NCBI RefSeq assembly: GCF_044647545.1
Contig: NZ_CP172818.1
DNA length: 64,000 nt
Strand: one strand, 5' to 3'
Origin: Escherichia coli
GTDB lineage: Bacteria; Pseudomonadota; Gammaproteobacteria; Enterobacterales; Enterobacteriaceae
The notes under the pieces are model-generated. The model was not told the DNA's origin. It did no database searches and saw only the letters and a list, made by a program, of their open reading frames with translations. Made by a program: the position numbers and the translations under genes. Positions within the stretch are counted from its first letter, which is position 1; each line of letters starts with the position of its first letter. Shown here in pieces: positions 43,543-47,544 of this stretch.

Positions 43543-44355
43543 TTATTTTTTAGCAGAATCTGCGGCTTTCGCATCAGCTTCCGGCTTTGCATCAGCCTTC
43601 GGCGCTGGTTTCACATCCAGCAGCTCTACGTCAAACACCAGGGTAGAATTCGGTGGAATCCCCGGAACACCCGCTTTGCCGTAAGCCAGTTCTGGTGGAA
43701 TAACCAGTTTGATCTTACCGCCTTTCTTGATGTTCTTCAGACCTTCTGTCCAACCCGGGATAACACCGTCCAGACGGAAAGAGAGCGGTTCACCACGGGT
43801 GTAAGAGTTGTCGAACTCTTTACCGTCGATCAGCGTACCTTTGTAGTTCACGACAACAGTATCGCTGTCTTTCGGTGCTTCGCCTTTACCGGCTTCTACT
43901 ACCTGATAAACCAGACCAGTTGAAGAGGTTTTCACACCTTTCTCTTTGGCAAATTTCTCGCGGTACTCTTTACCTTTCGCTTCGTTATCTGCCGCGTCTT
44001 TTTCCATCTTCGCCTGAGCAGAAGACTTCACGCGAGCTTCGAATGCTTGCAGTGTCTGTTCGATCTCTTGGTCGGAGAGTTTGCTCTTATCAGCAAATGC
44101 ATCCTGAACACCAGCGATCAGCTGATCTTTATCCAGTTTGATGCCCAGTTTTTCTTGTTCTTTAAGAGAGTTTTCCATGTAACGACCCAGCGAAGCACCC
44201 AATGCATAAGCTGATTTCTGATCGTCATTTTTGAACGCTGCTTTGCTGTCAGCAGTTGTAGCAGGTTTTGCAGCTTCAGCAGCAAAAGTGATTGGTGCAT
44301 GCAGGGCAACGGCCATTGTGGTCGCCAGCAGCGTTACTTTAAACAGTGATTTCAT
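43543..44355 (-). CDS. fkpA: periplasmic FKBP-type peptidyl-prolyl cis-trans isomerase FkpA
   Basis: 270 aa with signal peptide and FKBP domain, Lys/Ala-rich C-terminus. Confidence 0.9.
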   Translation of the reverse strand: MKSLFKVTLLATTMAVALHAPITFAAEAAKPATTADSKAAFKNDDQKSAYALGASLGRYMENSLKEQEKLGIKLDKDQLIAGVQDAFADKSKLSDQEIEQTLQAFEARVKSSAQAKMEKDAADNEAKGKEYREKFAKEKGVKTSSTGLVYQVVEAGKGEAPKDSDTVVVNYKGTLIDGKEFDNSYTRGEPLSFRLDGVIPGWTEGLKNIKKGGKIKLVIPPELAYGKAGVPGIPPNSTLVFDVELLDVKPAPKADAKPEADAKAADSAKK

Positions 44356-44575: not shown

Positions 44576-44794
44576 ATGCAGGATTTATCATTGGAAGCAC
44601 GCCTGGCAGAGCTGGAGAGCCGATTGGCTTTTCAGGAAATCACCATTGAAGAACTGAACGTCACGGTGACCGCTCATGAAATGGAGATGGCGAAACTGCG
44701 CGATCATCTGCGTCTGCTGACCGAGAAGCTAAAAGCCAGCCAGCCGTCGAACATCGCGTCGCAGGCTGAAGAAACGCCACCGCCACATTATTGA
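44576..44794 (+). CDS. slyX: SlyX family protein
   Basis: 72 aa coiled-coil protein, [28 protein letters not shown]. Confidence 0.85.
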
Positions 44795-44805
44795 GGCGTA
44801 AAAAA

Positions 44806-44827
44806 AGCGGGGATTCCCCCGCTTTTT
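44806..44827. terminator. bidirectional intrinsic terminator between convergent slyX and slyD
   Basis: Perfect stem gcggggattcccccgc with A-run upstream and T-run downstream. Confidence 0.8.
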
Positions 44828-44843
44828 TGTCACTTTTTCGGTA

Positions 44844-45434
44844 TTAGTGGCAACCGCAACCGCCGTTACCTTTACCGCCGCAGCAGCCTTCGCCACCGTG
44901 TTCATGACCGTGATCGTGGCCATGACCACCGCAGCAACCGTCGTGGTCGTGATCGTGGTGATGATCGTGTGCACCGTGAACGTGGCCATGAGCCAGTTCT
45001 TCTTCAGTCGCTTCGCGAATCGCCACAACTTCAACGTTGAATTTCAGGTTCTGACCGGCCAGCATGTGGTTACCATCAACCACGACGTGATCGTCTTCAA
45101 CCGCAGTGATTTCAACCGGTACCGGACCCTGGTCGGTTTCAGCCAGGAAACGCATACCTACCTGCAGTTCATCAACGCCCATAAATACGTCTTTAGGAAC
45201 GCGTTGCACCAGGTTTTCGTCGTACTGACCGTAAGCGTCGTTCGCGCCAACAGCGACATCAAATTTGTCGCCAACTTCGTGACCTTCCAGCGCCGTTTCC
45301 AGGCCAGAGATCAGGGAACCGTGACCATGCAGGTAGTCCAGCGGCGCACTCACCGGAGACTCATCAACCAACACACCGTCTTCTGTACGTACCTGATAGG
45401 CCAGGCTGACCACCAGGTCTTTTGCTACTTTCAT
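44844..45434 (-). CDS. slyD: FKBP-type peptidyl-prolyl isomerase / metallochaperone SlyD
   Basis: 196 aa, MKVAKDLVVSLAYQVRTEDGVLVDESPVSAPLDYLHGHGSLISGLE, His/Cys/Gly-rich C-terminal tail. Confidence 0.95.
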   Translation of the reverse strand: MKVAKDLVVSLAYQVRTEDGVLVDESPVSAPLDYLHGHGSLISGLETALEGHEVGDKFDVAVGANDAYGQYDENLVQRVPKDVFMGVDELQVGMRFLAETDQGPVPVEITAVEDDHVVVDGNHMLAGQNLKFNVEVVAIREATEEELAHGHVHGAHDHHHDHDHDGCCGGHGHDHGHEHGGEGCCGGKGNGGCGCH

Positions 45435-45528
45435 GATATCTCCTGAGCATGGGAAGAATAGTGGCGCAGATTGTAGCGGAATTCTGCAGCCGTGTACTCA
45501 CTAGCTTAAAAAAACTCGGCGCATATCG

Positions 45529-45729
45529 CTAGTCCGGATGAAAAATCCCGATCACTTGCTCATCTTTGCGAACGTGATCGCGGGCTTCTTTGTCTGCTTC
45601 TCGCATCTGATGTCCGCACTTAACACATTCAACAATATCAATATTATTTTCGCGCCACATCGCCATTGAATCCTGCGCCTGACAGGCCGGGCATTTTGCC
45701 CCCGCAATAAAACGTTTTCGGATTGCCAT
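45529..45729 (-). CDS. yheV: zinc-ribbon small protein YheV
   Basis: 66 aa with CPACQ...CVKCGH zinc-ribbon pattern. Confidence 0.8.
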   Translation of the reverse strand: MAIRKRFIAGAKCPACQAQDSMAMWRENNIDIVECVKCGHQMREADKEARDHVRKDEQVIGIFHPD

Positions 45730-45738
45730 CTTTACCCT

Positions 45739-47544
45739 CTACTCAAATTCATCCCAGCCGTCCAGCTGGCGTCGTTCTTGTTGCATTTCACGCTGGAAAA
45801 TCTCTTCCAGTTCGCGTCGGGCTTCCCTGGCGCGAGAAATTTGTACGGTATCGGCATGCATTGGGATGAGCTCTCGCAACATCCGCATATCCAGGCGACG
45901 AAAATGCAGCTGCGCCCGCTGTGCCTGATGCGGATGCATGCCAAGCGTGACCAGCGTCTTGCGTCCCAGCTCTAACGCACTGGAGAATGTCTCACGAGAA
46001 AACTGCGTCACCCCTGCCTGTAATAACTCATGCGCCTCCACACGTCCGCGCGCTCGCGCAAGAATATGTAAATGCGGAAAGTGCTGCTGGCATATTTCCA
46101 CCAGTTTCATGGTGTCTTCCGGCTCGTTACAGGTAATGACGATAGACTCAGCGGCCTCTGCACCCGCAGAACGTAAAAGATCTACCTGCGTGGCGTCGCC
46201 GTAATAAACTTTGTAGCCATATTTACGCATCAGGTTAACGGCGCTGATATCCCGCTCCAGCACGGTAATGCGCATTTTATTTGCCATCAGCAAACGACCA
46301 ATCACCTGACCAAAACGCCCAAAGCCCACGACAATGACCTGCGGTTTATCATCGTTGACCCATGGTTTTTCGTCTTCTTCTTCCGGTCCGTTAAACTGGC
46401 GGGATAGCCATTTATCTACCAGCTTCATCAGCAGCGGCGTGGTCATCATGGAAAGCGTCACCGTCACCAGCAACAGCGCCATCTGGTCGCCCTGAAATAA
46501 GCGTTGTGAAGAAGCGGTAGAAAAGAGCACAAAGGCAAACTCACCGCCCTGACTCAACACGCCAGCAAACTGCATCCGCTCTGAGCTACGCACGCCATAC
46601 AATCGCGCCAGCAGATACAGCACGAGAATTTTCACCGCCACCAGCACAACCACACTTATCACTACCCACAACAGATGGGTATAAAGCACCCCGAGGTTGA
46701 GTGACATGCCGACAGAGATAAAGAACAAACCGAGCAGCAAGCCTTTGAAGGGATCGATAGCCGTTTCCAGTTCATGGCGATATTCACTTTCCGCCAGTAG
46801 CACACCCGCAATAAACGTACCGAGCGCCATCGACAACCCCAGCGCATCCATAAACAATGCGGAACCCAACACCAGCAGCAGCGTCGCGGCGGTGAACACT
46901 TCCCGCACACCAGAAGCTGCAATAAAACGGAATACCGGACGCAGTAAATAGCGCCCGCCAATCAGCATGCCGACAAACGCCAGCACCTTCATGCCGATCT
47001 TCATCCAGTCGAAATGTTCGTCTGCCGAACCCGCCAACAACGGCACTAACGCCAGTGCCGGGATCACCGCCAGATCCTGAAACAGCAGAACCGAAAAACC
47101 TAGCTGCCCGGATTCGCTGCGATTCATCCCTTTCTCACGCATCAGTTGCAACGCCATTGCGGTTGAGGACATCGCAAGGCCAATACCACCGACCACCGCC
47201 GCCTGCCATGAGAAATGGGTCAGCATCAATAATCCCGCCAGCAACGCCGCGCTTAACAGCACCTGTGCCGCACCTACGCCAAAAATCGAACGCCGCAATT
47301 GCCAAAGCTTGGAGGGATTCAACTCCAGGCCGATGATAAACATCAGGAACACCACGCCGAGTTCCGAAAAGTGGAGGATCTCATCGACGTCGCTAATAAA
47401 ACCCAGCCCCCACGGGCCAATAGCAATCCCTGCCAGCAAATATCCCAACACAGCGCCAATCCCCAGCCGCGATGCCAGCGGCACCGCAGCCACCGCCGCG
47501 AAGAGAAACAGCACTCCTGCGAGTAAAAAATCGGAACCTTCCAT
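45739..47544 (-). CDS. kefB: glutathione-regulated potassium-efflux system protein KefB
   Basis: 601 aa, CPA2 antiporter membrane domain plus C-terminal KTN/RCK domain. Confidence 0.9.

What the first reader, a model, noticed from the sequence alone, without database searches (positions are those of the whole stretch)
44847..44960. SlyD C-terminal tail encoded by a repetitive GC-rich His/Cys/Gly codon tract
The last 40 or so codons of slyD (HGHVHGAHDHHHDHDHDGCCGGHGHDHGHEHGGEGCCGGKGNGGCGCH) form a low-complexity, repeat-rich DNA tract. Such tracts are prone to slippage and vary in length between strains, which affects nickel-binding capacity.
Basis: partly seen in the sequence, partly recalled or inferred. 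Interest (0 to 1): 0.2.

Follow-up and report, generated by a model that had tools for sequence, protein, structure and literature searches.

The report
SlyD nickel-binding tail, rarely length-variable
This is the well-known histidine/cysteine-rich nickel-binding tail of the E. coli chaperone SlyD; its repetitive codons do occasionally gain or lose whole codons by slippage, but more than 99% of E. coli genomes keep exactly the same 196-residue protein, so the finding is ordinary.

Summary
slyD lies at 44844-45434 on the minus strand and encodes 196 aa. Its last 48 codons (44847-44990) give exactly the quoted His/Cys/Gly/Asp-rich string. The tract is 62-63% G+C against 51% for the window. It holds many short in-frame direct repeats but no real tandem array.

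The protein is identical to E. coli K-12 SlyD (PDB 2KFW, NCBIfam equivalog). Its tail is the known disordered domain that binds nickel for hydrogenase maturation.

Among 5,425 complete E. coli genomes, about 40 (0.7%, a lower bound) carry a tail of different length: 183, 192, 194, 201 or 209 aa. Every variant is an in-frame deletion or duplication bounded by 5-11-nt direct repeats. These include a reciprocal pair of -39 and +39 nt, and the same protein change produced by different DNA deletions. So slippage is real and recurrent.

All 98 evenly sampled genomes had the 591-nt gene. Fourteen distinct full-length alleles had no amino-acid change in the tail, although synonymous diversity there was about four times that of the rest of the gene. 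The tail is under purifying selection and is not a contingency locus. An effect of these variants on nickel capacity is inferred, not tested.

The parts
44844..45434 (-). slyD coding sequence (196 codons plus TAA stop): FKBP-type peptidyl-prolyl isomerase, chaperone and nickel metallochaperone SlyD
   Evidence: ORF. NCBIfam equivalog NF008008 scores 426.8 bits (cutoff 174) over residues 1-196. Pfam FKBP_C matches. PDB 2KFW matches over 1-196 with 438.8 bits. Annotated slyD in 5,425 E. coli genomes.
44847..44990 (-). C-terminal metal-binding tail, codons 149-196 (HGHVHG...GCGCH): 15 His, 6 Cys, 16 Gly, 7 Asp/Glu
   Evidence: Literature on the identical protein describes an unstructured tail that binds up to 7 Ni(II) (PMC7055735, read).
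44976..44990 (-). HGHVH (codons 149-153), the conserved HGHXH single-metal site at the start of the tail
   Evidence: The motif is present in 132 of 137 retrieved homologues. It is described as the Ni/Zn site retained in SlyD155 and in Thermus SlyD (PMC7055735).
44935..44969 (-). His/Asp-rich core (gene nt 466-500; D157-D165, GAT CAY CAC CAC GAT CAC GAC CAC GAC). Most natural in-frame indels map here: -6, -6, -6, -12, -12 and +15 nt.
   Evidence: Alignment of variant alleles; probe hits.
44948..44958 (-). First copy of the 11-nt direct repeat CCACGATCACG (gene nt 477-487)
   Evidence: It bounds the 39-nt deletion (183 aa) and the reciprocal 39-nt duplication (209 aa).
44909..44919 (-). Second copy of the 11-nt direct repeat CCACGATCACG (gene nt 516-526), 39 nt downstream of the first
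44850..44861 (-). GGTTGC x 2 tandem (codons 192-195, G-C-G-C). Loss of one unit gives the 194-aa '-GC' allele.
   Evidence: loci L004-L006 carry the same 6-nt loss on three different synonymous-SNP backgrounds.
44801..44828 (.). Hairpin AAAAAAGCGGGG-ATTC-CCCCGCTTTTTT between the convergent genes slyX (+) and slyD (-), with an A-run and a T-run on either side; probably a bidirectional intrinsic terminator
   Evidence: A 1-nt length difference among strains maps here.

Best explanation
The tract encodes the intrinsically disordered C-terminal metal-binding domain of SlyD. SlyD is the E. coli FKBP-type prolyl isomerase and chaperone that stores Ni(II) and supplies it, through HypB, to [NiFe]-hydrogenase maturation.

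The domain is built from a few ligand residues (His, Cys, Asp) and Gly spacers. Its codons therefore form many short direct repeats of 5-11 nt at in-frame spacings.

Misalignment between these repeats during replication (slippage, or short-homology deletion and duplication) occasionally removes or duplicates whole codons. This yields functional-looking in-frame alleles of 183-209 aa.

Purifying selection on the protein keeps the 196-aa form in more than 99% of E. coli. Over longer times the same process, together with substitutions, has made tail length and sequence differ between genera.

Shown here: the gene's identity, the repeat structure, the existence, junctions and frequency of the indel alleles, and conservation of the tail's amino-acid sequence.

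Inferred: replication slippage as the molecular event, and functional consequences for nickel capacity.
For: Identity. The protein matches NF008008 and is full-length identical in alignment extent to PDB 2KFW. It sits in the fkpA-slyX-slyD-yheV-kefB neighbourhood.

Function. For this exact protein the literature reports up to 7 Ni(II) per protein, a tail required for hydrogenase activation and for Ni release from HypB, and a tail that varies among species (PMC7055735; PMC11198818).

Indel alleles.
- -39 nt, between the 11-nt repeats.
- +39 nt, the reciprocal product, in strain ERP001.
- +15 nt tandem duplication.
- -6 nt, GGTTGC, on three SNP backgrounds.
- Three different -6 nt and two different -12 nt deletions in the His/Asp core.
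- Further alleles among database proteins.
- The '-HD' protein WP_000861331.1 arises from two different DNA deletions: GATCAC lost in E2348/69 and MIN6, GACCAC lost in PEC422.

Frequency. A scan with 120 junction probes hit 55 of 5,426 genomes; 39 are true variants and 16 are normal alleles aligned with a gap. One further genome carries the +15 allele. Eleven variants were verified by annotated CDS length.

Constraint. The 14 distinct full-length alleles showed 11 synonymous and no nonsynonymous polymorphisms in the tail.
Against: The slippage event itself was not observed. Junctions in direct repeats are also expected from RecA-independent recombination between short repeats.

The 0.7% figure is a lower bound. 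The probes cover only events with at least 5 nt of microhomology and length up to 63 nt. They detected 90% of synthetic products. Five duplication events in the His/Asp core are masked by BLAST's low-complexity filter.

Several of the 40 genomes are re-sequenced copies of one strain (E2348/69 x 4, EC0026B x 5), so independent events are far fewer than 40.

Some variants occur on hundreds of contigs: 693 for one 192-aa allele, 454 for the other, and 113 for a Shigella dysenteriae allele. They are therefore not all strongly deleterious.
Confidence: 0.87

Rival explanations
1. The tract is a contingency-type hypermutable locus: its length changes often between and within strains and so tunes nickel-binding capacity adaptively. 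This is the strong form of the reader's reading.
For: Several independent in-frame alleles exist, with 11-19 His and 4-8 Cys. The same changes recur on different backgrounds. Some alleles are fixed in successful lineages: Shigella dysenteriae, EPEC E2348/69, and a clade sharing the -HD/A155E allele that includes two urinary isolates from Taiwan.
Against: There is no long perfect simple-sequence repeat: TRF scores are 33 and 44, and the longest exact repeat is 11 nt. About 99.3% of complete genomes have the 591-nt gene. Four assemblies of E2348/69 and five EC0026B derivatives each show the same allele, so it is stable within a strain. Codon order is no more repetitive than synonymous permutations.
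Confidence: 0.07
2. The length variants are sequencing or assembly artefacts in a low-complexity, G+C-rich region, and real E. coli tails are invariant.
For: Frameshifted 214-215-aa forms ending in FFTPQ or FFTSQ occur mostly on single short metagenomic contigs and could well be errors.
Against: All catalogued length variants are in frame and bounded by repeats. They occur in closed genomes with annotated intact CDSs. They are reproduced in independent assemblies of the same strain (E2348/69 x 4). They are seen on 26-693 contigs each in an independent collection, except the 209-aa allele, which is on 3.
Confidence: 0.03
3. The length variants were acquired by homologous recombination from other Enterobacteriaceae with different tails, not generated in situ.
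For: Tails differ in length among genera: Citrobacter 198, Klebsiella 192/197, Serratia 190-202. Tail SNPs show reticulation, with 8 of 21 site pairs failing the four-gamete test.
Against: Each variant equals an E. coli allele minus or plus a contiguous block of E. coli sequence. Flanks and body are E. coli (body protein identical). None carries the diagnostic substitutions of Salmonella, Citrobacter or Klebsiella tails.
Confidence: 0.03

Closest known systems
E. coli K-12 SlyD (b3349; UniProt SLYD_ECOLI; PDB 2KFW full length, 2K8I residues 1-165 plus tag)
   Same: The 196-aa protein sequence is identical. It has the same three-part architecture (FKBP domain, IF chaperone insert, disordered His/Cys tail) and the same genomic neighbourhood.
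   Different: There are only synonymous DNA differences: 9 in 591 nt against a K-12 derivative, 7 of them in the tail.
SlyD orthologues of other Enterobacterales (Salmonella, Citrobacter, Klebsiella, Serratia, Yersinia, Erwinia)
   Same: The FKBP/IF body is conserved. The tail starts with HGHVHG, and 84 of 112 cluster representatives end in GCGCH. Most have at least one CC pair.
   Different: Tail length ranges from about 25 to about 56 aa, with other arrangements of the His/Asp/Gly blocks. Salmonella shows a parallel -12 nt allele (P0152).
Other histidine-rich nickel-handling proteins: H. pylori Hpn and Hpn-like, His-rich stretches of some HypB proteins, K. aerogenes UreE tail
   Same: These are low-complexity His-rich segments that bind several Ni(II) ions and are thought to store or buffer nickel (PMC7055735). 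Hpn-like fragments from two H. pylori strains have been compared for nickel binding (PMC8704837, abstract).
   Different: They are unrelated proteins. The SlyD tail also uses Cys pairs and is attached to a chaperone/PPIase. The UreE tail is dispensable, whereas the SlyD tail is needed for hydrogenase maturation (PMC7055735).
Simple-sequence contingency loci of bacterial pathogens (phase-variable genes with long homopolymer or short-unit tandem tracts)
   Same: Length changes arise by strand misalignment at repeated DNA inside a coding region.
   Different: Here the repeats are short and imperfect, the changes are in frame rather than on/off frameshifts, variants are rare (0.7% of genomes), and they are stable within strains.

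Membership tests
SlyD (FKBP-type PPIase / metallochaperone; NCBIfam NF008008 equivalog) | Full-length match to the curated equivalog model above its cutoff | tested here: met
   426.8 bits against a cutoff of 174, covering residues 1-196 of 196.
SlyD (FKBP-type PPIase / metallochaperone; NCBIfam NF008008 equivalog) | FKBP_C catalytic domain interrupted by the insert-in-flap (IF) chaperone domain | tested here: met
   Pfam PF00254 matches residues 4-78. Full-length alignment to the solved E. coli SlyD 2KFW and to 2K8I and 8G01. Protein sequence identical to SLYD_ECOLI.
SlyD (FKBP-type PPIase / metallochaperone; NCBIfam NF008008 equivalog) | C-terminal His/Cys/Asp-rich tail beginning with the HGHXH site | tested here: met
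   Codons 149-196 hold 15 His, 6 Cys and 7 Asp/Glu.
SlyD (FKBP-type PPIase / metallochaperone; NCBIfam NF008008 equivalog) | Conserved enterobacterial context fkpA - slyX - slyD - yheV - kefB | tested here: met
   ORFs; annotated neighbours in 20+ E. coli records.
SlyD (FKBP-type PPIase / metallochaperone; NCBIfam NF008008 equivalog) | Binds several Ni(II) ions and supports [NiFe]-hydrogenase maturation | not testable with these tools
   Reported for the identical protein (up to 7 Ni; PMC7055735). Not measured for the natural length variants.
Contingency / phase-variable simple-sequence locus | Long, near-perfect tandem array of a short unit within the gene | tested here: not met
   TRF finds only 3.3 copies of a 6-mer (85% match) and 2.4 copies of a 12-mer, scores 33 and 44. 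The longest exact repeat is 11 nt.
Contingency / phase-variable simple-sequence locus | Frequent length differences among and within closely related strains | tested here: not met
   About 40 of 5,425 complete genomes vary. No variant appeared among 98 evenly spaced samples apart from the lowest-ranked record. Replicate assemblies of one strain carry the same allele.
Repeat-mediated in-frame indel hotspot (slippage-prone coding low-complexity region) | Indel junctions fall in direct repeats; reciprocal deletion and duplication occur; the same event recurs on different haplotypes | tested here: met
   -39 and +39 nt between the same 11-nt repeats. The GGTTGC loss occurs on three SNP backgrounds. 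The -HD protein arises from two different 6-nt deletions.

The most novel reading that the evidence does not exclude
The tail acts as a slowly evolving 'capacity dial'. Recurrent repeat-mediated in-frame indels (183-209 aa; 11-19 His, 4-8 Cys) would be retained, not just tolerated, in particular lineages because they retune nickel or zinc buffering or hydrogenase maturation. Candidate lineages are Shigella dysenteriae, EPEC E2348/69, and a clade sharing the -HD/A155E allele that includes two urinary isolates from Taiwan. Relatedly, the roughly 4-fold excess of synonymous diversity and the four-gamete failures inside the 144-nt tail might reflect template switching between its quasi-repeats rather than ordinary mutation and recombination.
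Probability: 0.1. Interest if true: 0.35.

Novelty: already known. Interest (0 to 1): 0.15.

Why it matters
It matters little beyond housekeeping. The gene, its tail and the tail's role in nickel handling are textbook knowledge.

The modest new information is quantitative. In E. coli the tail is almost invariant at the protein level, yet it has produced at least 13 natural in-frame length alleles at short direct repeats.

These alleles form a ready-made natural series (183, 192, 194, 201, 209 aa) for testing how ligand number relates to nickel capacity and hydrogenase maturation.

They also bear on IMAC work, where SlyD is a common contaminant: E2348/69, NCTC9038 and other strains carry shorter tails.

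Tried and rejected
1. Tandem Repeats Finder and the repeat finder found only weak arrays, so 'tandem repeat tract' was rejected as a description.

2. I tested whether codon choice avoids or enhances DNA repeats. Synonymous-codon permutation showed no difference, so this was rejected.

3. I tried reading length variation from BLAST identity bands and evenly spaced rows. This cannot show the bottom of the ranking. It gives only an upper bound of about 3%.

4. The first junction-probe designs failed. Sorted concatenation and fixed spacers created 28-mers found in normal alleles, giving false hits. This was fixed with adaptive spacers. A one-base error in my reconstruction of the L001 background was found and corrected.

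5. BLAST's low-complexity filter masks probes for five duplications in the His/Asp core, including the known +15-nt allele. I replaced that probe with a direct search using locus L002.

6. Sixteen of the 55 probe hits were normal alleles aligned with a 3- or 6-nt gap, or substitution variants. They were rejected after comparing alignment spans and checking annotation.

7. Literature searches for slyD with 'slippage', or with 'in-frame deletion' and 'histidine-rich', found nothing on natural tail-length variation.

8. The antisense ORF 44847-45446 (+, 199 aa) and the alternative-frame ORF 44729-45034 (-, 101 aa) were treated as by-products of the codon composition, not as genes.

Full report
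WHAT IS THERE

The window carries an ORF at 44844..45434 on the minus strand (196 codons, ATG start, TAA stop). That string spans 44847-44990.

Neighbouring ORFs are fkpA (43543-44355, -), slyX (44576-44794, +), yheV (45529-45729, -) and kefB (45739-47544, -). The same names are annotated in related records.

The protein scores 426.8 bits against the NCBIfam equivalog NF008008 (cutoff 174) over its whole length. It contains Pfam FKBP_C. It aligns end to end with the solved E. coli SlyD structure 2KFW. An exact look-up shows the sequence is SLYD_ECOLI.

IS THE TRACT UNUSUAL?

Yes in composition, only moderately in repeat structure.
- The 48 residues are 16 Gly, 15 His, 6 Cys, 5 Asp and 2 Glu.
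- G+C is 0.62-0.63 against 0.53 for the rest of the gene and 0.51 for the window. Only 0.3% of 144-nt windows reach that value.
- Tandem Repeats Finder reports only two weak arrays, with scores 33 and 44.
- The longest exact direct repeat is 11 nt, CCACGATCACG, with copies 39 nt apart.
- The tract has 11 pairs of in-frame repeated 8-mers, against a mean of 0.34 and a maximum of 6 in 444 other windows.
- Permuting synonymous codons among positions of the same amino acid gives the same repeat statistics (p about 0.5 on four allele backgrounds).

The DNA repetitiveness is therefore a passive consequence of the peptide sequence.

KNOWN FUNCTION

This comes from the literature, not from tests here. 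SlyD is an FKBP-type prolyl isomerase with an inserted chaperone (IF) domain. In E. coli it also has an unstructured C-terminal tail rich in His, Cys, Asp and Glu.
- The tail binds up to 7 Ni(II) ions.
- Nickel binding reversibly inhibits the isomerase.
- The tail is thought to store nickel and feed it to [NiFe]-hydrogenase assembly through HypB.
- The tail is required for hydrogenase activation. The truncation SlyD155 binds one Ni at His149/151/153 and is inactive in vivo.
- The tail is 'variable among SlyDs' of different species.
(PMC7055735; PMC11198818.)

DOES THE TAIL VARY AMONG E. COLI STRAINS?

Sampling. slyD is present once in 5,425 of 5,426 complete genomes. In 39 records taken at even steps through the whole-gene ranking, the match spans exactly 591 nt. 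In 59 evenly spaced records of a tail-centred query, the span is 220 or 221 nt. That 1-nt difference lies in the intergenic hairpin.

The first variant. The only exception was the lowest-ranked record, NZ_LR536431.1. Its slyD is 552 nt. It has a clean 39-nt deletion with both ends in the 11-nt repeat, which removes DHDHDGCCGGHGH.

Variants in the protein collection. The large protein collection then showed further E. coli alleles. A 201-aa form carries a 15-nt tandem duplication that adds HHDHD. A 194-aa form has lost one GGTTGC of a two-copy tandem. That loss occurs on three different synonymous-SNP backgrounds.

Design of the junction-probe scan. To count such alleles among complete genomes, I built junction probes. 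For every in-frame pair of direct repeats of at least 5 nt in 17 allele backgrounds, I wrote the predicted deletion and duplication junctions. At most 27 nt on each side was contiguous with a normal allele, so megablast (28-nt words) cannot seed on normal alleles. Locally the 120-probe query gave no hit on any normal background. It detected 877 of 971 synthetic products.

Result of the scan. Against the 5,426 genomes it hit 55. Mapping the hits to probes and checking 14 representatives by annotated CDS length gave 39 true variants:

| Change | Genomes | Product |
|---|---|---|
| -39 nt | 4 | 183 aa |
| +39 nt | 1 | 209 aa |
| -6 nt, GACCAC-type | 13 | 194 aa |
| -6 nt, GATCAC-type | 5 | 194 aa |
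| -6 nt, CACCAC | 1 | 194 aa |
| -12 nt, AHDHDHDG tail | 12 | 192 aa |
| -12 nt, AHDHHHDG tail | 3 | 192 aa |

The other 16 hits were normal-length alleles aligned with a gap or carrying a substitution. The +15-nt allele's probe is masked by the low-complexity filter. A direct search with that allele found exactly one genome.

Total. About 40 of 5,425 genomes vary (0.7%). This is a lower bound given the probe limits, and it is inflated by replicate assemblies (E2348/69 x 4, EC0026B x 5). In an independent collection the same proteins are seen on 3-693 contigs each. Further alleles exist there, including a 192-aa form in Shigella dysenteriae and a parallel -12-nt allele in Salmonella.

WHAT THE VARIANTS SAY ABOUT MECHANISM

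- All are in frame, and each junction examined at the DNA level lies in a short direct repeat.
- Both reciprocal products of the 39-nt repeat pair exist.
- The same '-HD' protein arises from two different 6-nt deletions.
- The GGTTGC loss sits on three haplotypes.

This is the signature of recurrent strand misalignment at short repeats. The event itself is inferred, not observed.

SELECTION

Among 17 full-length alleles (14 distinct DNA sequences) there are 21 polymorphic sites.
- The tail has 11 polymorphic sites in 144 nt, all synonymous.
- The body has 10 in 444 nt, one of them nonsynonymous.
- Of 17 normal-length (591-nt) alleles checked by annotation, 14 encode the same protein accession despite up to 2.2% DNA divergence.

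The tail's amino-acid sequence and length are therefore strongly conserved within the species. Length variants look like rare, mostly young, tolerated mutations. This is not a contingency locus.

Between genera, tails range from about 25 to about 56 residues. They keep the HGHVHG start and usually the GCGCH end.

VERDICT

Slippage-type length variants exist and change the number of ligand residues (11-19 His and 4-8 Cys, against 15 and 6). They are rare, however, and their effect on nickel binding is untested. Interest is low.

SIDE OBSERVATION LEFT UNEXPLAINED

Synonymous diversity is about four times higher in the tail than in the body. pS is 0.139 against 0.036 in alleles chosen without reference to the tail. 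Gly codons are polymorphic in 6 of 16 tail positions against 0 of 13 in the body. Eight of 21 pairs of informative sites fail the four-gamete test.

Noticed in passing
window 44847-44990 compared with 44991-45434: Synonymous diversity among E. coli alleles is about 4-fold higher in the tail than in the rest of slyD (pS 0.126-0.139 against 0.035-0.036). Gly codons are polymorphic in 6 of 16 tail positions and 0 of 13 body positions. Eight of 21 pairs of informative sites within the 144 nt fail the four-gamete test. The cause is unknown: weaker codon selection, conversion between quasi-repeats, or a recombination mosaic.
   Followed up: partly
window 44801-44828: A perfect 12-bp hairpin (AAAAAAGCGGGG / CCCCGCTTTTTT, 4-nt loop) lies between the convergent genes slyX and slyD, flanked by an A-run and a T-run. 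It looks like a shared bidirectional intrinsic terminator. Its G-run differs by 1 nt among strains (spans of 220 or 221 nt).
   Followed up: partly
window 44729-45034 (-), alternative frame of the slyD tail; proteins P0012, P0046, P0072, P0106: Frameshifted SlyD forms of 214 aa, ending ...[12 protein letters not shown], occur in databases with the shift at several different points in the tail. They read through the alternative-frame ORF that runs across the terminator. P0012 is from a 4.99-Mb NCBI E. coli contig; most of the others are from short metagenomic contigs. They may be real out-of-frame slippage products or sequencing errors.
   Followed up: no
window 44847-45446 (+): A 199-aa antisense ORF mirrors slyD almost exactly. 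It is most likely a stop-free antisense frame produced by the gene's codon composition, not a gene.
   Followed up: no
L024 (E. coli ERP001, NZ_CP063214.1), slyD at 122-751: This is the longest natural allele seen, at 209 aa. A 39-nt duplication gives a third GCCGG block (8 Cys, 19 His). It is seen on only 3 contigs in the large collection.
   Followed up: partly
proteins P0144 (Shigella dysenteriae, 192 aa) and P0152 (Salmonella enterica, 192 aa): A 12-nt loss in the tail appears fixed in Shigella dysenteriae (113 contigs). An analogous loss of DHGH occurs in a Salmonella serovar. Parallel tail shortening therefore occurs outside typical E. coli.
   Followed up: no
summary (E. coli genome collection): One of the 5,426 complete E. 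coli genomes has no slyD match at all. In one other genome the match is on a record labelled as a plasmid.
   Followed up: no
L026 (strain J6), L027 (EF7-18-51), L032/L035 (EC1515, EC974); proteins P0123, P0127: Rare amino-acid substitutions within the tail exist: G171D, C195S, A155E, G-to-S (293 contigs) and H-to-Q. The ligand residues themselves are therefore occasionally altered as well.
   Followed up: no
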